DNA of 64,000 nt from an uncultured Candidatus Saccharibacteria bacterium (lineage in GTDB: Bacteria > Patescibacteriota > Dojkabacteria > SC72), in NCBI GenBank assembly GCA_964403155.1, contig CAYOEG010000003.1, positions 21,400 to 85,399 on the forward strand. Direction: 5' to 3'. The stretch's first letter is position 1; each line of letters starts with the position of its first letter. The translations under genes were made by a program, and so were the position numbers. Positions 4,563 through 36,979 of the stretch are shown here, piece after piece. The notes under the pieces were generated by a model, which saw nothing but the letters and a program-made list of their open reading frames with translations, was not told the DNA's origin and ran no database searches.

Positions 4563-5846
4563 CTAGATATAGAGATTAGAGTCAATTCTCGTTCTTAATA
4601 ATCGGAAAACTTTGTTAATTATTTGGGGTACACGTTGGTACGTTATTTTGTATATTGGGGCAATTTGTTGGTGTTTTTTACCTTCTATGTAGCACATATG
4701 GAAAATCTCCTTATCTCTAGGGGTCAACTTCTTCTCAAGTATAAGTTGATCAATTTTACTAAATATATATTTTAAACTTTCTTCATCATCTTTCAAATCA
4801 TGCATATCATCATCGTTATGTTTGATTATTATCCTTTCACCTATTGTATCTCCATCTGCTTCTGTTTCGTTAATTGATGCATCTAGCTCGATTATTTTTT
4901 GATTTTGAACATTTATGATTGCAAAAACTGTTTCTGTTGTAATTGGGGAGTCTCGATGCCAGTCTACGGATTCGATAATAGATTCCACTTCTTCAATGCC
5001 TAGTTCCTTTAATTGTTTACCTTTAAACATCTCGTTAGCTTTTTTTAAGAACATATTAAATCTAGCTTTTGTACTACGATTTATCCTAATAATATTCTCG
5101 CACCCATCATTTCTTCCAGATTGTATATAGCACATTATTGTTTTTACAGCATATGTGCTAAATTTGAATCCTTTTTTGATATCAAAATTACGAATAGCGT
5201 AAAGGAGGCCGATCATACCAGTTTCGTAATCATCTTCACTTATATAACCAAGCTCACGCATAGCTTTGTATACAAGGGGTCTTTCTGTTCTACAAAGAGC
5301 ATCTTCTATTCTTCCAATGTATTCTTCTATTTTTGTATTTTCATTCTCGTTGAAGCGTAGCATCTGTCTTGTTGTAATCAAATCACCCCGGGTTGTCGAA
5401 TCCAAGAGCAACTTATCCTCAGGATGATTACAGAAAAAAGTTTCAATGTATCTAAGCGATATTTCTGTTGATGCTTTAATGGGAGATGCTACGATATTTG
5501 TTAGTTCGGTTTCGTAAAAGGCTTTTCCTTTGAGTATGGGGTATAACTGTTTGAGTGTCCTGACTTCCATGTTCAGAAGTTGGCAAGCGATTTGTGTATC
5601 AATAAGTTTAGAATTTTGTGATATAGATGATGTAATTTCTGAAATATTTTGTATTTTTTCATAGAATTGCTCAAACTCTTTTTCCGTTGACGGTAGCAGA
5701 TATGGAGCTCCTTCTATTACCTTTTCTGGGAAGAAAGTAATTGTATTGAGCAACTTTCGTGTTTCTTCATAGTTTTTTTCTGGTATTGCGACGACAAAGT
5801 CAATACCATTTTCTAATTGTGACATAGTCTCTAACTCGTATCCCAT
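4563..5846 (-). CDS. Sigma-70 family RNA polymerase sigma factor with an N-terminal extension of about 190 aa
   Basis: Region 2 (IGLLYAIRNFDIKKGFKFSTYAVKTIMCYI) and region 4 HTH (LTPRDKEIF...ITYQRVPQIINKVFRLLR) are recognisable. The first roughly 190 aa show no similarity I can recognise. Confidence 0.65.
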   Translation of the reverse strand: MGYELETMSQLENGIDFVVAIPEKNYEETRKLLNTITFFPEKVIEGAPYLLPSTEKEFEQFYEKIQNISEITSSISQNSKLIDTQIACQLLNMEVRTLKQLYPILKGKAFYETELTNIVASPIKASTEISLRYIETFFCNHPEDKLLLDSTTRGDLITTRQMLRFNENENTKIEEYIGRIEDALCRTERPLVYKAMRELGYISEDDYETGMIGLLYAIRNFDIKKGFKFSTYAVKTIMCYIQSGRNDGCENIIRINRSTKARFNMFLKKANEMFKGKQLKELGIEEVESIIESVDWHRDSPITTETVFAIINVQNQKIIELDASINETEADGDTIGERIIIKHNDDDMHDLKDDEESLKYIFSKIDQLILEKKLTPRDKEIFHMCYIEGKKHQQIAPIYKITYQRVPQIINKVFRLLRTRIDSNLYI

Positions 5847-5921
5847 AGCGCAAGATTATACCACGTTAATTCTGAAATGTACTTAGCTTTTAATTCCTTT
5901 GAAACTACGTTATCATGAAAT

Positions 5922-17700: not shown

Positions 17701-18144
17701 GTTATGGTCAACAAGATTAGAAAGATTACAACTAAGAAGGGTGAAATAATGGCATTTCTCACGATTGAGGACAAGACTGCTACCGCTGATGCTATTGTAT
17801 TTCCTAGAACGTATCAGGAGCTTAAGGATGCACTATGTGAGAATAAACCAATACTAATAGCGGGAAAGATAAATGTAAGAGATGGAGAGAAGAGTATCGT
17901 TGTTGAAAAAGCAAAATATATTGATGAGGAGAAATGTAAATCTAGTTTTGATGGTATTACTTTCAGAATTAGACCTATTCATTCAGAAGAAGAGATTGCT
18001 GAATTAAAAGCCTTTATTGCTAAATCTGATGGTGATATTCCTGTACGTATTATTATCGATGATGGTGAGAAGAAAAAGACAGCTGTACTTGCTAAGAAGA
18101 TTGGTATGAATGAAGAAACAAAGAAATGGTTAAGGAAGTTCTAA
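14743..18144 (+). CDS. dnaE: DNA polymerase III alpha subunit
   Basis: PHP domain (MFTHLHLHTEYSLLD, CAITDHGNMHG), polymerase core and OB-fold; 1133 aa. Confidence 0.95.
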   Translation: MFTHLHLHTEYSLLDATIRIPALIEKLQANGMTSCAITDHGNMHGAFKFKNAMTEAGLKPIIGCEIYVAPRKMSDKEFGIDNNYYHLILLAKNLNGYKNLMKIVSVAHMEGFYYRPRIDFETLSKYTGDLVATSACLAGPISQPLLKSNDYKKALDTAKNYAEIFKDNFYIEIQRNGMEEQEKVNEGLLKIAKELKLPIVATCDSHYLDKEDAAIQEILWCISDGTAMDDPKKRTMPTNEFYVKTPQEMEELFKDLPEAIENTQKIAYSIEEYDMSFGRIEPHYLDLPEGLTTGEYLKKVTFDGAKDKYGEITKELEVRLNYELDVIGGKGYNDYFLVVRDFVMFCRNNGIVVSMRGSGCGSAVAYCIDITNIEPIGWELYFERFLNPERESPPDFDIDIADKRRGELIEYTINKYGIDNVKQIGTFSKLQTRQAIKDVGRVLGIDLEITNKLAKMVEVVFGKAKDIDYMIEHNPEFAEIINSSDKLQELRKIVKKVAGICRGTSTHACGVIVAPEPVVNFCPIQRDSHGGGIGMTQYEMADAEATGLMKFDFLGLRNLNVIGEAVKKVEVNTGTQLNLRKLNRDDKESFEIMQQGHTVGIFQMEGEGMKRTIKAVHPESLEDVCYILAAYRPGPMQFISDYVDVKRGKKKAEYIFPELEPILCITNGVITYQEHIMSIVKEIGGYSMGNAAALMKLMSKKKFDKVEHEKPIFMEGAMKKGFDEEKLNLLWEKLLLFANYGFNKAHSASYATVAYWTAYLKAHYPLEFMAALLEGDLDNFDRVIIDLNECERLGINVLPPSINESGFYFKVEGDRSIRFGLGGIKNVGEDVVKTVVEERKEHGEYKHLDDFVHRMFNDVGKRAMEYLVMAGTMDSFGDRNALLQILPVIYEKEKARNKSQVLGQIDIFSLTSNGEEKKDETVAMTPLPNIEKTPISQILSWEKELLGLYFSSHPLDPFQEFFETKNVVSLRQALDEKKNNDLVILGVMVNKIRKITTKKGEIMAFLTIEDKTATADAIVFPRTYQELKDALCENKPILIAGKINVRDGEKSIVVEKAKYIDEEKCKSSFDGITFRIRPIHSEEEIAELKAFIAKSDGDIPVRIIIDDGEKKKTAVLAKKIGMNEETKKWLRKF

Positions 18145-18158
18145 TGGTATAATTAGTA

Positions 18159-23614: not shown

Positions 23615-23657
23615 CTCAAGATTCTAGCAGATATGGGTTTGTGTTAAAATAGCAGAT

Positions 23658-25478
23658 ATGGATAGACCAAAGTTAAACAAGTTAAGCCAAGAGGTAGTAA
23701 ATCAGATCGCGGCAGGAGAGGTAATTGAAAGACCTGCGTCTGTGCTAAAGGAGCTTTTAGACAACAGTATTGATGCACAGGCTATAAAAATTGTAGTAAA
23801 GATTAGAAATGGCGGTATGGATATGATTGAGGTGAGTGATGATGGTATTGGAATACCGAGTGAAAATTTGTCAGAAATATTCGATGCGCATACTACATCC
23901 AAAATAAAGAGTATAGAGGATTTGAATACATTGATGAGTATGGGATTTAGAGGCGAGGCGTTATCATCCATAACTTCCGTGTCAAAGGTTACTGTTCAAT
24001 CAAAATACAAAGACGAGGATGTTGCTTATGAGCTATCCTACAATGATAATGGTAAATCAGATGTAAAAAAATGTGCGAGAGAAGAGGGTACTTTAGTTAA
24101 AGTTGAAGACCTTTTCTACAATATTCCAGCAAGAAAAAAATATCTTAAATCAGCGCAAACTGAGTACAGGAAGATATATGAGACAATTTCAAAGTACTTA
24201 TTAACATACCCGAATATCCATTTTGTTGTTGAGAAAGATGGTAAAAAAATCTTAGATATGCCAATTGTGAAGGATGCTAAGCCGGGGGATATCGTCAAAG
24301 AGAGAGCACGAGAGGTATTTGCAGATGAAGAAAGTTTGGAGGTTTTCTATGATGGCTCTGGAATAACTATAAAAGGACTCTCTGCGCATCCTTCCTCTCA
24401 TAAAGCGAAATCATCGAAGCAGGTTGTTTTTGTTAACCATCGTGCTATTACTGATCGTGGAATTATTCGTGCAGTGTATGAAGGTTATTCCAGATTCCTA
24501 CCATTTGGAGAAAAGATTTCTTTTGTATTGGGAATTGATATTAAGCCAGAACTTGTAGATGTTAATGTACATCCGAGAAAAGAAGAAGTTAGATTTGAAA
24601 ATGCCTTTAGGGTATATTCCGCAGTTGAGGAAGCTATTAGACATACATTAGAAAAGGCCTTGTCGTTTAACAACACCCACCTCGAGGAATCATCTTCTTC
24701 TGCAGTGAGTAGCTCTTTTGATAGTATCAGACAGAACTTCGCTAACGCAAAGTCGATATCTGTACCTAAGCCATATTCTGAAATCAAGTTTAACAACAAG
24801 GCCTCATCTGTAAGAGACAGTCTGTTGTTCTCGCAGGAGGTGCTTCAAAACACATTTTCAGCTAAGATACCGGAACATATATCCCAGGATGAGGGAAAAG
24901 GGATATCCAGTGTCAGAAATATTTTTCAGATTTTTAATAAATATATTGTTGTAGAGTTTGAAGATGAACATCTCTGGGTTATAGATCAGCATGCCGCTGC
25001 GGAGAGAATTAATTTTGAAAAATTATCCAACAGAGAAACTAAATCAAATGTACAGACATTACTCGTGCCCCAAGAAGTAAAGCTCTCGAAAGAGCAAATC
25101 CTGTTTTTAAAGGAGCAAAAAGAGTTTTTTAAAGGGATGGGTTTTGCTTTTAATATAAAAGATTCGGGTATTGAGATTCTTACAACTCCTGTTGAGTTTA
25201 TGTTTGATATTCAATCCATGTTTAATGAAATCTTTGAACTTTCAGATGACCCCATGATTTTGAAACAGAATTTTGATAAGCTAAAACAAGACATACTTGC
25301 TACCATAGCATGCCATTTGAGTGTACGTTCAGGACAAAAATTAGATAGAAGCGAGATGTTGAGTATGTATAAAGAGCTATCTGAATGTAAAAATGAATAT
25401 AGCTGCCCGCATGGAAGACCCGCTATATGGAAAATGAGTTTGAGTGATATAGATAAAAATTTTGAAAGGACATACTAA
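23658..25478 (+). CDS. mutL: DNA mismatch repair protein MutL
   Basis: GHKL ATPase N-terminus (LSQEVVNQIAAGEVIERPASVLKELLDNSIDA) and the C-terminal dimerisation domain. Confidence 0.9.
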   Translation: MDRPKLNKLSQEVVNQIAAGEVIERPASVLKELLDNSIDAQAIKIVVKIRNGGMDMIEVSDDGIGIPSENLSEIFDAHTTSKIKSIEDLNTLMSMGFRGEALSSITSVSKVTVQSKYKDEDVAYELSYNDNGKSDVKKCAREEGTLVKVEDLFYNIPARKKYLKSAQTEYRKIYETISKYLLTYPNIHFVVEKDGKKILDMPIVKDAKPGDIVKERAREVFADEESLEVFYDGSGITIKGLSAHPSSHKAKSSKQVVFVNHRAITDRGIIRAVYEGYSRFLPFGEKISFVLGIDIKPELVDVNVHPRKEEVRFENAFRVYSAVEEAIRHTLEKALSFNNTHLEESSSSAVSSSFDSIRQNFANAKSISVPKPYSEIKFNNKASSVRDSLLFSQEVLQNTFSAKIPEHISQDEGKGISSVRNIFQIFNKYIVVEFEDEHLWVIDQHAAAERINFEKLSNRETKSNVQTLLVPQEVKLSKEQILFLKEQKEFFKGMGFAFNIKDSGIEILTTPVEFMFDIQSMFNEIFELSDDPMILKQNFDKLKQDILATIACHLSVRSGQKLDRSEMLSMYKELSECKNEYSCPHGRPAIWKMSLSDIDKNFERTY

Positions 25479-30847: not shown

Positions 30848-31033
30848 TTATTTCTTTTTCTTCTTTGCTACTTTCTTTGTAGCTTTCTTTTTTACCACCT
30901 TCTTTACAGTCTTCTTAGCAACTTTCTTCTTTGCTACCTTTTTGACTGCTGGCTTCTTAGTAACTTTTTTCTTTGTTACTTTCTTAGCCACTTTCTTTTT
31001 AACAACTTTTTTTGTTGTTTTACCTTTGGGCAT
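30848..31033 (-). CDS. Lysine-rich histone H1-like small basic protein (61 aa)
   Basis: MPKGKTTKKVVKKKVAKKVTKKKVTKKPAVKKVAKKKVAKK... is built from KK(V/A)xKK repeats. It is followed by its own terminator. Confidence 0.55.
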   Translation of the reverse strand: MPKGKTTKKVVKKKVAKKVTKKKVTKKPAVKKVAKKKVAKKTVKKVVKKKATKKVAKKKKK

Positions 31034-32281: not shown

Positions 32282-32617
32282 TTAGATTGCAGACAGCAAC
32301 TTTAGTGCCAATCCAGAAACAACAGGAACATCAAATCTCTCTCCTTTGTATGCCTTTACCATTCCAACAATGATAAGAACCAATGTTAATGGGGCTAATA
32401 ACCAACCGATAACAGGAACCCATGCGAATAATTGTAGGACACCAACTAGTGCAAACTGTGCACCCATGTATCTTACGAACTCATCCTCTTTTTCAACTAA
32501 CATAAGAATTAGGCCAACTATTGGGATACATGCCAATACAGCCATCCACTGATTCTTTGAGTTGTACTTAATTCCGTCTAATGTATAGACTTTTTTAGCT
32601 TTTTTCTCTTCTGCCAT
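32282..32617 (-). CDS. DUF4870-like small membrane protein
   Basis: The pattern W..VLACIPIVGLILMLVEKEDEFVRYMGAQFALVG...VPVIGWLLAPL matches DUF4870. The start was placed at MAEEKK (32617); the track ORF extends to 32659. Confidence 0.45.
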   Translation of the reverse strand: MAEEKKAKKVYTLDGIKYNSKNQWMAVLACIPIVGLILMLVEKEDEFVRYMGAQFALVGVLQLFAWVPVIGWLLAPLTLVLIIVGMVKAYKGERFDVPVVSGLALKLLSAI

Positions 32618-32675
32618 AGTAACAAGATATAAATTAATATCTTTAGGATACAAGTACATTTCTGATTTTGCAAGG

Positions 32676-32748
32676 GGTATACTACAGGTACTTGCATGGG
32701 TATACTGTACTGGTATACTTAGGTATACATAAATTATTAGTGGTATAC
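32676..32748. promoter_or_regulatory. Cluster of five GGTATAC heptamers (core palindrome GTATAC) in the lexA promoter region; candidate operator array
   Basis: GGTATAC occurs at 32676, 32699, 32712, 32722 and 32742. The last copy is the 8-bp palindrome GGTATACC, 2 nt before the lexA ATG. The region is divergent from the DUF4870 gene. Confidence 0.4.
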
Positions 32749-32750
32749 CT

Positions 32751-33407
32751 ATGGGAGATATATTGACTGAAAAACAGGAATTGGTTTTGAAAGCAATCAG
32801 AGATTTCTTTCTTGAGAATTCCTATGCACCTTCTTTAACGGAATTACAAAGGATCTTAGGTATTACAACGAAGAGGGGTGTAGTAATACACTTGATGGCT
32901 TTAGAGAGAAAGGGGTATATCATTAGAACTAATGAGCCTAGAGGTATTAGATTGATAGATGATACTGAAGAAACAATATCTTTCGAATATATGGTCGGTA
33001 TACCTATTCTAGGGTATGTAAATGCAGGGACACCACTAGTAAACGCGAATGAGGAAAATCTAGGTATATTAAAAGTTGCCAAAGATATTATTGGGAAGGG
33101 TAAAAAGAATCTCTTCTCAGTAGTTGTTAAAGGAGATTCTATGAACGAAGCAGTGGTTGGTAACACTAAAGTATCTGATGGCAATTATTTGATTGTTGAT
33201 AAGGATGCAGATGTGTCAGATGGTGATATTGTAGTAGCAATAATAGAGAACTCAGCTACAGTTAAAAGAATCAAAAGGCTGGAGGATATGATTGTGTTGT
33301 ATCCGCAATCAAGCAATCCGATACACCAGCCTATTTTCTTAAACTTAGACTTCAATGGGTTAATCAATGGTAAGGTTGTAAGAGTATTGGAGAATCCAGC
33401 TATCTGA
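32751..33407 (+). CDS. lexA: LexA repressor (S24 peptidase)
   Basis: N-terminal winged-helix domain; the cleavage-site region; Ser in VKGDSMNEA and Lys in TVKRIKRL of the S24 catalytic dyad. Confidence 0.85.
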   Translation: MGDILTEKQELVLKAIRDFFLENSYAPSLTELQRILGITTKRGVVIHLMALERKGYIIRTNEPRGIRLIDDTEETISFEYMVGIPILGYVNAGTPLVNANEENLGILKVAKDIIGKGKKNLFSVVVKGDSMNEAVVGNTKVSDGNYLIVDKDADVSDGDIVVAIIENSATVKRIKRLEDMIVLYPQSSNPIHQPIFLNLDFNGLINGKVVRVLENPAI

Positions 33408-36796: not shown

Positions 36797-36828
36797 CACA
36801 CAACATATTGTATGTATGTCCAACATAC
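36797..36828 (-). promoter_or_regulatory. Two adjacent palindromes upstream of nrdR; candidate NrdR boxes
   Basis: ACAAcATaTTGT at 36799-36810 is a near-perfect palindrome. GTATGT-cca-ACATAC at 36814-36828 is a perfect 6-3-6 inverted repeat. Both lie 10-40 nt upstream of the nrdR start, and both resemble the NrdR box acaCwAtATaTwGtgt. Confidence 0.35.
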
Positions 36829-36979
36829 CCCCAATCAGTAGTATGGTCAAGCAACCGATAGTGTGAAAGTCTATAGTATGTTGTTAGAAAAAGAGAAGTG
36901 ATTGTAAAAGAATATTACAGGATTTGACTATGAACTATCCCTTGTGTACCATATGTAATTAAGTTGAGTTCCACAACAG

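What the first reader, a model, noticed from the sequence alone, without database searches (positions are those of the whole stretch)
32674..32750. Array of five GGTATAC palindromic heptamers immediately upstream of lexA (candidate SOS operator of an undefined type)
- Within 75 bp before the lexA ATG the heptamer GGTATAC (core palindrome GTATAC) occurs five times, at 32676, 32699, 32712, 32722 and 32742.
- The last copy, the 8-bp perfect palindrome GGTATACC, ends 2 nt before the start codon.
- Two copies are spaced 10 bp apart, one helical turn.
- None of the known LexA box types is present, neither CTGT-N8-ACAG nor CGAAC-N4-GTTCG.
- The region also serves the divergent DUF4870 membrane-protein gene.
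- This looks like an autoregulatory operator array for this LexA, or a site for another regulator.
Basis: seen in the sequence. Interest (0 to 1): 0.55.

Follow-up and report, generated by a model that had tools for sequence, protein, structure and literature searches.

The report
LexA self-repression operator array, GTATAC type
The five GGTATAC repeats in front of lexA are real and conserved, and are most likely the sites where this candidate-phylum bacterium's DNA-damage repressor LexA shuts off its own gene; that is an expected kind of switch, built here from an unusual sequence in an unusually extended array.

Summary
GGTATAC occurs five times in 32676-32749, and the whole 64-kb window holds only 20 GTATAC. 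The gene is a canonical lexA of a Candidatus Dojkabacteria (WS6, Patescibacteria) genome.

All 33 related Dojkabacteria lexA loci (LexA 49-80% identical) carry 1-5 exact GTATAC hexamers just upstream. The consensus is RGTATACY. The hexamers sit at fixed promoter positions: beside the -35, in the spacer, over the -10 TATACT, at the predicted start site and next to the ATG. Spacers between them drift freely.

No other hexamer cluster exists in about 330 kb of Dojkabacteria DNA. The exception is inside lexA itself, where hexamers are about 5-fold enriched over synonymous-codon shuffles.

The 16-bp dyad GTATAC-N4-GTATAC (window 32713-32728) also sits on lexA promoters of distant lineages whose LexA shares an 'RGV' recognition helix. 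It has the geometry of the Gram-positive LexA box.

Best reading (0.8): a LexA autoregulatory operator array that probably also controls the divergent small membrane-protein gene. A wider SOS regulon is not shown: uvrB, uvrC and a uvrD-like gene in the window lack sites, and recA was unreachable. This is a new variant of a known kind. A 2017 Patescibacteria SOS paper could not be read, so priority is uncertain.

The parts
32751..33407 (+). lexA (218 aa). It has a winged-HTH with helix-3 T40-K-R-G-V-V-I-H-L48, the cleavage site A92-G93, and the catalytic residues S130 and K172.
   Evidence: Pfam LexA_DNA_bind and Peptidase_S24. Alignment to E. coli and T. maritima LexA structures. Residues checked.
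32676..32683 (+). Hexamer A (GGTATACT, core 32677-32682). It lies between the two divergent -35 boxes and is followed by the conserved block TACAGGTAC.
   Evidence: GGGGTATACTAYARGTA is invariant in the 7 closest sequences. It is present at about -72 in most Dojkabacteria loci.
32692..32697 (+). Predicted lexA -35 (TTGCAT)
   Evidence: Read from the sequence. A TTGnnn hexamer lies 16-17 nt before TATACT in all relatives. It scores too low for the consensus scanner.
32699..32706 (+). Hexamer B (GGTATACT), in the promoter spacer next to the -35
   Evidence: The hexamer is conserved, while the 7-8 nt between B and C are variable.
32712..32719 (+). Hexamer C (GGTATACT). It overlaps the predicted extended -10 (TGG-TATACT; -10 at 32714-32719).
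   Evidence: An exact GTATAC is present at -33 to -40 in 28 of 33 promoters; in L010, L093 and L094 it lies at -12, and the N3-dyad clade differs. Invariant.
32713..32728 (.). Core dyad GTATAC-TTAG-GTATAC (hexamers C and C'). This is the proposed primary LexA box, covering the -10 and the predicted transcription start.
   Evidence: It is the only zero-mismatch N4 dyad in the window. The same 16-bp architecture sits on lexA promoters of L015, L086, L281, L282, L017, L025, L072, L112, L121, L283 and L284.
32722..32729 (+). Hexamer C' (GGTATACA), at the predicted transcription start
   Evidence: It is exact in the 89-90% relatives and degenerate (GTATAT) in the 78-80% relatives.
32742..32749 (.). 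Hexamer D (GGTATACC, a perfect 8-bp palindrome), one base before the ATG
   Evidence: Relatives carry a hexamer either at -8 to -14 or at +7 (codons 3-4), not both.
32997..33004 (.). Intragenic hexamer (GGTATACC at +247, codons G83-I84-P85)
   Evidence: GGT-ATA-CCN is used in 15 of about 20 G-I-P cases, against 12% for G-I-C elsewhere. Intragenic GTATAC: 52 observed against 10.8 +/- 3.0 in synonymous shuffles.
32645..32673 (-). Predicted promoter of the divergent gene: -35 TTGCAA (32668-32673), a 17-nt spacer and -10 TATCCT (32645-32650). The -10 overlaps a one-mismatch hexamer GGATAC (32646-32651).
   Evidence: Read from the sequence. GGATAC, AGTATA or GTATAC is conserved at this place in relatives. 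The inverted repeat 32645-32658 / 32706-32719 mirrors the lexA -10 region.
32282..32617 (-). Divergent gene for a 111-aa small membrane protein (weak DUF4870 / MamF_MmsF-like hit). It is probably co-regulated with lexA.
   Evidence: tblastn finds it divergent from lexA in 28 Dojkabacteria loci. It is called as 111 aa in L281 and L282. Pfam gives 23 bits, below the cut-off.

Best explanation
The GGTATAC repeats are the operator through which this Dojkabacteria LexA represses its own promoter.

The recognised unit is the hexamer GTATAC, in the wider context RGTATACY. The core site is the 16-bp dyad GTATAC-TTAG-GTATAC (32713-32728). One LexA dimer would bind it in the same geometry as the Gram-positive LexA box (hexamer-N4-hexamer, AC-N4-GT core). 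That would cover the -10 TATACT and the transcription start and so exclude RNA polymerase.

Four further hexamers would recruit more LexA:
- A (32677) lies between the two divergent -35 boxes.
- B (32700) lies in the spacer.
- D (32743) lies at the ATG.
- One more lies inside the gene at +247.

These would tighten repression, possibly cooperatively or by looping. Through A and the degenerate hexamer on the divergent -10, they would extend control to the divergent small membrane-protein gene.

After DNA damage, RecA-stimulated self-cleavage at A92-G93 (S130 and K172 present) would free both promoters.

Shown: the hexamers, their conservation, their positions relative to promoter-like elements, and their link to LexA proteins with an RGV recognition helix. 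Inferred: LexA binding itself, the promoter and start-site assignment, the stoichiometry, and co-regulation of the divergent gene.
For: 1. The cluster is far beyond chance.

2. It lies directly upstream of a bona fide lexA with cleavage and catalytic residues.

3. All 33 Dojkabacteria-clade lexA loci have exact GTATAC in -130 to +20. There are 105 sites, with R at -1 in 90% and Y at +6 in 88%. In close relatives the hexamers are invariant and the spacers variable.

4. Of 110 GTATAC in 35.6 kb of non-coding DNA from these loci, about 100 are in the lexA intergenic region. No other pair lies within 40 bp anywhere in 263 kb plus the window, except inside lexA.

5. The array stays with lexA when the upstream neighbour differs (L015, L016, L096, L097).

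6. In 126 non-Dojkabacteria lexA loci, GTATAC-N3/4-GTATAC with at most 1 mismatch occurs 7 times. Every case is on the lexA promoter between a TTGACA -35 and the -10, and two more Patescibacteria loci show the same. Their LexA helix-3 carries RGV (SGV in L112), as in Dojkabacteria. LexAs with the STNGVNDHL, STSSVFSHL or KNAV helix types lack the dyad.

7. A Doudnabacteria lexA promoter has GTGAAC-GAGC-GTTTAC in the same frame. This links the dyad to the Gram-positive box geometry.

8. Intragenic hexamers are 5-fold enriched over synonymous shuffles and show either/or positional compensation.
Against: - There is no binding or expression data of any kind.
- Hexamer spacing is heterogeneous. Centre-to-centre modes are 9-10, 13-14, 21-23 and 31-32 bp, and N2-N4 between C and C' in close relatives. 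One rigid dimer geometry does not explain all copies.
- GGTATAC is 6 of 7 identical to the genome's usual extended -10 (TGGTATAAT), and TATACT is not a rare -10-like word. Part of hexamer C's conservation may therefore be promoter constraint.
- The classical SOS genes in the window (uvrB, uvrC, uvrD-like), and also mutL and dnaE, have no site. A regulon beyond lexA is unshown.
- recA upstream regions could not be obtained.
Confidence: 0.8

Rival explanations
1. The hexamers are bound by a different, unidentified regulator that controls lexA and/or the divergent membrane-protein gene. An example would be a small dimer reading each 8-bp palindrome on its own, as ribbon-helix-helix repressors do.
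For: Each unit is a short palindrome (RGTATACY), and the spacings are variable. This suits independent small dimers better than one LexA geometry. No other SOS-type gene in the window carries the motif.
Against: The motif follows lexA, not the neighbour gene. It recurs on lexA promoters of unrelated lineages (Anaerolineae, Armatimonadota, other Patescibacteria), and only where LexA has the RGV helix. No candidate regulator gene is conserved next to the locus.
Confidence: 0.08
2. The repeats act in the RNA. Self-complementary GGUAUAC(C) segments pair with each other, for example 32720-32728 with 32743-32751, to hide the start codon or to set mRNA stability. The intragenic copies would be further pairing partners.
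For: A perfect 9-bp stem ends at the A of the AUG. Hexamers near the ATG (-8 to -14, or +7) and inside the CDS are conserved at synonymous sites.
Against: The fold is no better than shuffles (z = -0.79; 42 of 200 shuffles fold as well). Hexamers A and B lie upstream of the predicted -35 and -10, so they are probably not transcribed. Any DNA palindrome array gives such pairings for free. The distant lineages have only the promoter dyad.
Confidence: 0.05
3. The repeats are reiterated -10-like promoter elements (GGTATACT resembles the extended -10 TGGTATAAT), giving several overlapping promoters or sigma-factor binding sites rather than a repressor site.
For: Other promoters in the window read TGGTATAAT 5-9 nt before the ATG. 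Hexamer C does coincide with the best -10.
Against: The G at position 1 and the C at position 6 are invariant in all 105 sites. Many copies read GGTATACC, which lacks the essential final T of a -10. Only one copy has a TTGnnn at 16-17 nt. The intragenic and ATG-proximal copies make no sense as promoters.
Confidence: 0.04
4. GTATAC is a target of a DNA methyltransferase or restriction-modification system. The sequence is the site of enzymes such as Bst1107I/BstZ17I (own knowledge). On this view the cluster is an epigenetic switch.
For: It is a 6-bp palindrome of the type II restriction-site kind.
Against: The hexamer is not depleted in the window (20 observed against 13.9 expected). Its conservation is specific to lexA promoters across lineages that would not share one restriction-modification system.
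Confidence: 0.03

Closest known systems
Gram-positive (Cheo/DinR) LexA box GAAC-N4-GTTC, autoregulating lexA (own knowledge; listed as a motif class in PMC8565304)
   Same: Two half-sites are separated by 4 bp, with the AC-N4-GT core kept (GTAT[AC]-TTAG-[GT]ATAC). The site sits on the lexA promoter. A Doudnabacteria lexA promoter shows the intermediate GTGAAC-GAGC-GTTTAC in the same frame.
   Different: The inner bases differ: 3 of 8 mismatches in the best window match. The half-site is itself a palindrome. Four extra hexamers lie at non-canonical spacings, and there are conserved intragenic copies.
Cyanobacterial LexA box RGTACNNNDGTWCB (own knowledge)
   Same: It shares the TAC-N4-GTA core. 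It is the nearest published motif by sequence, with 2 of 11 mismatches at 32706.
   Different: GTATAC carries an extra TA in each half. The core dyad has 4 mismatches to the cyanobacterial pattern.
Multi-box SOS promoters of E. coli: lexA with two boxes, recN with three (own knowledge), and uvrB with four LexA sites (abstract of PMC6015884)
   Same: Several LexA sites on one promoter give tight, probably cooperative repression, including of lexA itself.
   Different: Here there are five upstream units plus units inside the coding region. The sequence is different, and the spacing varies between relatives.
SOS network of the Patescibacteria (Sanchez-Osuna, Barbe, Erill 2017, Environ Microbiol 19:3465; cited in PMC8565304 and PMC7739468)
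   Same: It concerns the same superphylum and the same question. PMC7739468 cites it as a case of LexA recognising a direct-repeat motif.
   Different: The paper is not held in the library. Whether it describes a GTATAC motif or covers Dojkabacteria could not be checked. This is the main uncertainty about novelty.
lexA divergent from a small membrane-protein SOS effector: yneA in Bacillus subtilis, sosA in Staphylococcus aureus (own knowledge)
   Same: lexA shares a short divergent control region with a gene for a small membrane protein. The pair is conserved in 28 Dojkabacteria loci.
   Different: There is no sequence relation: the hit here is weak DUF4870 / MamF_MmsF-like. The function is entirely untested.
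MetJ met-box arrays (own knowledge; analogy only)
   Same: Operators are built from 2-5 copies of an 8-bp palindromic unit.
   Different: Met boxes are strictly contiguous and are read by a ribbon-helix-helix protein. Here the units are spaced irregularly and the candidate reader is a winged-HTH LexA.

Membership tests
LexA operator (SOS box) autoregulating lexA | Lies in the lexA promoter, overlapping the -35, -10 or start site | tested here: met
   The hexamers flank and overlap the predicted TTGCAT-16 nt-TATACT promoter. This architecture is conserved in relatives. The promoter itself is predicted, not mapped.
LexA operator (SOS box) autoregulating lexA | Dyad (or direct-repeat) site of about 12-16 bp, fit for a LexA dimer | tested here: met
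   GTATAC-TTAG-GTATAC at 32713-32728 is the only perfect N4 dyad in the window. The other hexamers do not pair at this spacing.
LexA operator (SOS box) autoregulating lexA | Conserved in orthologous lexA promoters | tested here: met
   33 of 33 Dojkabacteria loci, with footprint-like conservation.
LexA operator (SOS box) autoregulating lexA | The motif tracks the LexA recognition helix across lineages | tested here: met
   Dyads occur with helices carrying RGV (SGV in L112). They are absent with the STNGV, STSSV and KNAV helix types.
LexA operator (SOS box) autoregulating lexA | The cognate LexA is cleavable (Ala-Gly site, Ser/Lys dyad) | tested here: met
   A92-G93, S130 and K172 align with E. 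coli A84-G85, S119 and K156.
LexA operator (SOS box) autoregulating lexA | LexA binds the site, and DNA damage derepresses it | not testable with these tools
   Needs EMSA or footprinting and expression data.
SOS regulon operator (the same motif upstream of other DNA-damage genes) | Motif upstream of recA, uvrA/B, dinB and similar genes | tested here: not met
   There are no sites upstream of uvrB, uvrC, the uvrD-like gene, mutL, dnaE or the exonuclease gene in the window. No other cluster exists in 263 kb of related loci. recA is absent from all reachable DNA, so the test is incomplete.
E. coli-type SOS box CTGT-N8-ACAG | CTGT and ACAG tetramers 8 bp apart | tested here: not met
   The best match is 2 of 8 mismatches, at 32705.
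Gram-positive LexA box (C)GAAC-N4-GTTC(G) | GAAC and GTTC tetramers 4 bp apart | tested here: not met
   The best match is 3 of 8 mismatches. Only the N4 spacing and the AC-N4-GT core are shared, at 32713-32728.
Cyanobacterial LexA box RGTACNNNDGTWCB | 14-bp consensus | tested here: not met
   The best match is 2 of 11 mismatches, at 32706.
Patescibacteria LexA-binding motif (Sanchez-Osuna et al. 2017) | The motif as published | not testable with these tools
   The paper is not held, and no paper in the library quotes the motif.

The most novel reading that the evidence does not exclude
In Dojkabacteria, LexA treats the 8-bp palindrome RGTATACY as a modular unit. A longer interdomain linker (8 extra residues compared with E. 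coli) would let dimers bridge units at several spacings. Arrays running from -74 to about +250, including selected sites inside the lexA coding region, would then form a looped or higher-order repression complex.

The regulon would be essentially a two-gene module: lexA plus the divergent DUF4870-like membrane protein. That protein would act as the damage-induced effector, for example a division inhibitor analogous to YneA or SosA.
Probability: 0.2. Interest if true: 0.65.

Novelty: new variant of a known kind. Interest (0 to 1): 0.5.

Why it matters
LexA is the textbook case of a regulator whose binding motif changes across phyla. About 17 motifs have been reported (PMC8565304).

A GTATAC-based box would add a motif class that appears to span several poorly studied lineages: Dojkabacteria, other Patescibacteria, Anaerolineae, and relatives in Armatimonadota. 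It ties that class to a specific recognition-helix signature (RGV). It also shows a plausible path from the Gram-positive box, from GTGAAC-N4-GTTTAC to GTATAC-N4-GTATAC.

The motif gives a direct handle for predicting the DNA-damage regulon of uncultured, reduced-genome bacteria. The evidence so far suggests that this regulon may be very small.

The synonymous-site conservation of operator units inside lexA is an unusual feature, and a testable one.

Tried and rejected
1. Literature. The 2017 Patescibacteria SOS paper is not held. Six full-text searches found no statement of its motif and no LexA work on Dojkabacteria or other candidate phyla.

2. Regulon.
- Cluster and dyad scans of the window and of all loci found nothing outside lexA.
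- The nrdR-nrdD-nrdG operon next to lexA has NrdR-box-like palindromes but no GTATAC.

3. A scan of viral contigs for GGTATAC-N2-9-GGTATAC gave 120+ scattered hits that look like chance. It was not pursued.

4. The RNA hairpin idea: the stem exists, but the fold is not better than shuffles.

5. The idea that TATACT is simply this clade's -10. Outside the lexA region, TATAAT (25) outnumbers TATACT (16) in upstream regions. The word is therefore common enough to weaken, but not explain, the conservation of hexamer C.

6. A conserved 14-mer TGTACTGGTATACT, mirrored at the divergent promoter. The GTAC part is not conserved in relatives, so it was dropped as a motif.

7. The simple promoter scanner did not call the lexA promoter, because its -35 matches only 3 of 6 positions.

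Full report
**Observation.** The sequence shows GGTATAC at 32676, 32699, 32712, 32722 and 32742 on the + strand. The last copy is the palindrome GGTATACC (32742-32749), with one base before the ATG at 32751. The whole window contains only 20 GTATAC hexamers (13.9 expected) and 12 GGTATAC (5.3 expected). Five hexamers in 72 bp has a Poisson probability of about 1e-11 per window, or about 7e-7 after correction for position. It never arose in 200,000 random placements.

**Context.** The downstream ORF (32751-33407) is a canonical LexA. It has Pfam LexA_DNA_bind plus Peptidase_S24. It aligns end to end with the E. coli and Thermotoga LexA structures. The cleavage site A92-G93 and the catalytic S130 and K172 are present. 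Its closest homologues are named Candidatus Dojkabacteria / candidate division WS6. NCBI places that clade under 'Bacteria candidate phyla'; assigning it to the Patescibacteria/CPR is my own knowledge.

The divergent ORF encodes a small membrane protein with a sub-threshold DUF4870 (MamF_MmsF-like) hit. Its real start is most likely the ATG at 32617 (111 aa). That start is conserved, and it is the one called in relatives. The shared control region is therefore 32618-32750.

**Comparative evidence within the clade.** Scans of genome and metagenome collections with a LexA alignment returned 33 distinct Dojkabacteria-clade lexA loci (LexA 49-80% identical), plus two at 89-90%.
- Every locus has exact GTATAC in the 130 bp before lexA or within its first codons. 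There are 105 sites in total.
- A purine precedes the hexamer in 90% of sites and a pyrimidine follows in 88%, so the unit is RGTATACY.
- In the seven closest sequences the hexamers are invariant, while the 7-8 nt between them differ freely. This is a classical phylogenetic footprint.
- In 35.6 kb of non-coding DNA from all these loci there are 110 GTATAC, and about 100 of them lie in the lexA intergenic region.
- No other pair of hexamers lies within 40 bp anywhere in 263 kb of related DNA or in the window, except inside lexA itself.
- The array is kept in loci where the upstream neighbour is not the membrane-protein gene (L015, L016, L096, L097). It therefore belongs to lexA.

**Anatomy.** A promoter-like pair, TTGCAT (32692-32697) and TATACT (32714-32719) 16 nt apart and preceded by TG, is conserved as TTGnnn-16/17-TATACT in all relatives. 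This is read from the sequence, and the start site is inferred. Relative to it:
- Hexamer A abuts the upstream edge of the -35 and lies between the two divergent -35 boxes.
- Hexamer B fills the spacer next to the -35.
- Hexamer C is the -10.
- Hexamer C' covers the predicted start.
- Hexamer D touches the start codon.

In relatives the last site is either at -8 to -14 or at +7 (codons 3-4), not both. The divergent gene's predicted -10 (TATCCT on the minus strand, 32645-32650) overlaps a one-mismatch hexamer. In several relatives that position holds an exact GTATAC.

Centre-to-centre spacings across the clade cluster at 9-10, 13-14, 21-23 and 31-32 bp.

**Hexamers inside lexA.** GTATAC recurs at +193 (G65-I66) and at +247 (G83-I84-P85; window 32997-33004). 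Where +247 is absent, it recurs at +225 (V-Y) instead. G-I followed by a C-initial codon is written GGTATAC in 17 of 32 and 15 of about 20 lexA cases, against 12 of 101 in other genes of the same loci. Shuffling synonymous codons within each lexA gene gives 10.8 +/- 3.0 hexamers (maximum 21 in 500 shuffles), against 52 observed. The sequences are phylogenetically related, so the p-value is not literal. Still, the effect is large, is seen in several clades, and shows either/or compensation. These copies look selected at the nucleic-acid level.

Among 126 non-Dojkabacteria lexA loci (GC 43-64% among those carrying a dyad), GTATAC-N3/4-GTATAC with at most one mismatch occurs seven times. Each time it is on the lexA promoter, between a TTGACA -35 and the -10. 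The loci are L017 (Anaerolineae), L025, L072, L112, and L040, L119, L121 (the last three with GTCTAC as the second half).

Homologues of the L025 LexA are named 'Patescibacteria group bacterium'. Two further loci of that group, at 64-65% GC, show TTGACA-N4-GTATAC-ATAT-GT[AC]TAC. All these LexAs carry RGV in recognition helix 3 (SGV in L112): PRGVQRHL, PRGVTRHL, LRGVTVHL and LRGVTGHL, plus RSGVQVHL in L112. Dojkabacteria have the invariant TKRGVVxHL.

LexAs with the STNGVNDHL, STSSVFSHL and other non-RGV helix types show no such dyad. A Doudnabacteria LexA with a KNAV helix has GTGAAC-GAGC-GTTTAC at the same promoter position. That is a Gram-positive-type box differing from GTATAC-N4-GTATAC only at the inner hexamer bases.

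In E. coli LexA the aligned helix reads S39-P-N-A-A-E-E-H46. That N41, A42, E44 and E45 are the base-contacting residues is my own knowledge. Here the helix reads T-K-R-G-V-V-I-H, which fits a changed specificity.

The only factor common to these lineages and promoters is lexA itself. This is why I assign the motif to LexA with about 0.8 confidence.

**Mechanism proposed.** One dimer would sit on the core dyad 32713-32728 in Gram-positive-box geometry and occlude the -10 and the start site. Additional LexA on A, B, D and the intragenic unit(s) would strengthen repression. Through A and the degenerate unit on the other -10, it would also repress the divergent gene.

The heterogeneous spacings are the weak point. 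The 8-residue longer acidic linker between the domains might allow dimers to bridge units at more than one spacing, but that is speculation. RecA-stimulated self-cleavage would relieve repression.

**Regulon.** The window encodes uvrB, uvrC, a uvrD-like helicase, mutL, dnaE, a RecD/PIF1-like helicase and an ExoX-like exonuclease. None has a hexamer upstream. recA is not in any reachable Dojkabacteria DNA. So self-regulation is well supported and a broad SOS regulon is not. The regulon may be small.

**Rivals.**
- Another regulator (0.08). It is hard to reconcile with the cross-lineage link to lexA and to the LexA helix.
- RNA pairing of the self-complementary units (0.05). A 9-bp stem reaches the AUG, but it is no better than shuffles, and A and B are probably untranscribed.
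- Reiterated -10 elements (0.04). GGTATAC resembles the local extended -10 TGGTATAAT. However, the invariant terminal G and C, and the frequent GGTATACC form, argue against sigma recognition.
- Methylation or restriction sites (0.03). The hexamer shows no depletion.

**Relation to what is known.** The array works like any autoregulatory SOS box, and multi-box SOS promoters are known. It is not a member of the E. coli, Gram-positive, cyanobacterial or other listed motif classes by sequence. It shares spacing and the AC-N4-GT core with the Gram-positive and cyanobacterial boxes.

The closest prior work is the 2017 comparative study of the Patescibacteria SOS network. The library does not hold it. 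It is cited only as an example of a direct-repeat LexA motif (PMC7739468). I could not establish whether it already describes GTATAC.

I therefore rate this a new variant of a known kind, with the stated risk that the motif itself is published. The extended array and the selected intragenic units are the least expected elements.

Noticed in passing
window 23625-23636 and 23650-23661 (also 5694-5705): A perfect 12-bp direct repeat, TAGCAGATATGG, occurs twice in the 43-bp uvrB/mutL divergent intergenic region. The second copy contains the mutL ATG. The first opens a 4-codon mini-ORF. The repeat is partly conserved in L282 and less so in L281. A third copy lies inside the sigma-70 gene.
   Followed up: partly
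window 32997-33004; related loci at +7, +193, +225 and +247 of lexA: GTATAC units inside the lexA coding region are kept by codon choice: 52 observed against 10.8 expected under synonymous shuffling. They show either/or positional compensation.
   Followed up: yes
window 32282-32659: The mechanical ORF call (125 aa, start 32659) over-extends the divergent gene. The conserved start is the ATG at 32617 (111 aa). The gene is the divergent partner of lexA in 28 Dojkabacteria loci. This arrangement recalls lexA-yneA and lexA-sosA in Firmicutes.
   Followed up: partly
L017, L025, L072, L112, L283, L284 (lexA promoters): GTATAC-N4-GTATAC dyads lie between TTGACA and the -10 of lexA in GC-rich Anaerolineae and non-Dojkabacteria Patescibacteria. 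In L025, L072, L283 and L284 the dyad lies 95-140 nt before the ATG. The leader there contains repeated GCGCTCCC(T) words, possibly a structured leader.
   Followed up: partly
L029-L031, L035-L037, L040, L075, L119, L121, L138 (lexA promoters): Armatimonadota-type LexAs (helix LRGVTVHL) have GTAGAC and GTCTAC elements flanking the -10. Some occur as GTATAC-N3/4-GTCTAC or GTAGAC-N4-GTCTAC. This suggests a related, apparently undescribed motif family, GTAnAC.
   Followed up: no
L285 9960-10000 and 11556-12827: The Doudnabacteria lexA promoter carries a Gram-positive-like box, GTGAAC-GAGC-GTTTAC. A dinB (IMS family) gene lies about 1 kb downstream, with no obvious box in the 160 bp before it.
   Followed up: partly
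window about 5850-5870 and 18135-18158: The promoters of the sigma-70 gene and of uvrC read TGGTATAAT only 5-9 nt before the ATG. This suggests leaderless or very short-leader mRNAs and little use of Shine-Dalgarno sequences in this genome.
   Followed up: no
window 36800-36900 (minus strand, upstream of nrdR): NrdR-box-like palindromes (for example ACATACAATATGTTGTGT) precede the nrdR-nrdD-nrdG operon. That operon converges on lexA and overlaps its 3' end by 8 bp (33400-33407).
   Followed up: no
window 30848-31033 (minus strand): A 61-aa ORF made almost entirely of KKV/KKA repeats, resembling a histone H1-like or basic nucleoid protein. It is also called as a gene in L281 and L282.
   Followed up: no
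L016 5610-5615: A single TGGGTATACTT lies 19 nt upstream of a ruvX-yceG operon in a complete Dojkabacteria-clade chromosome. A lone hexamer cannot be judged.
   Followed up: no
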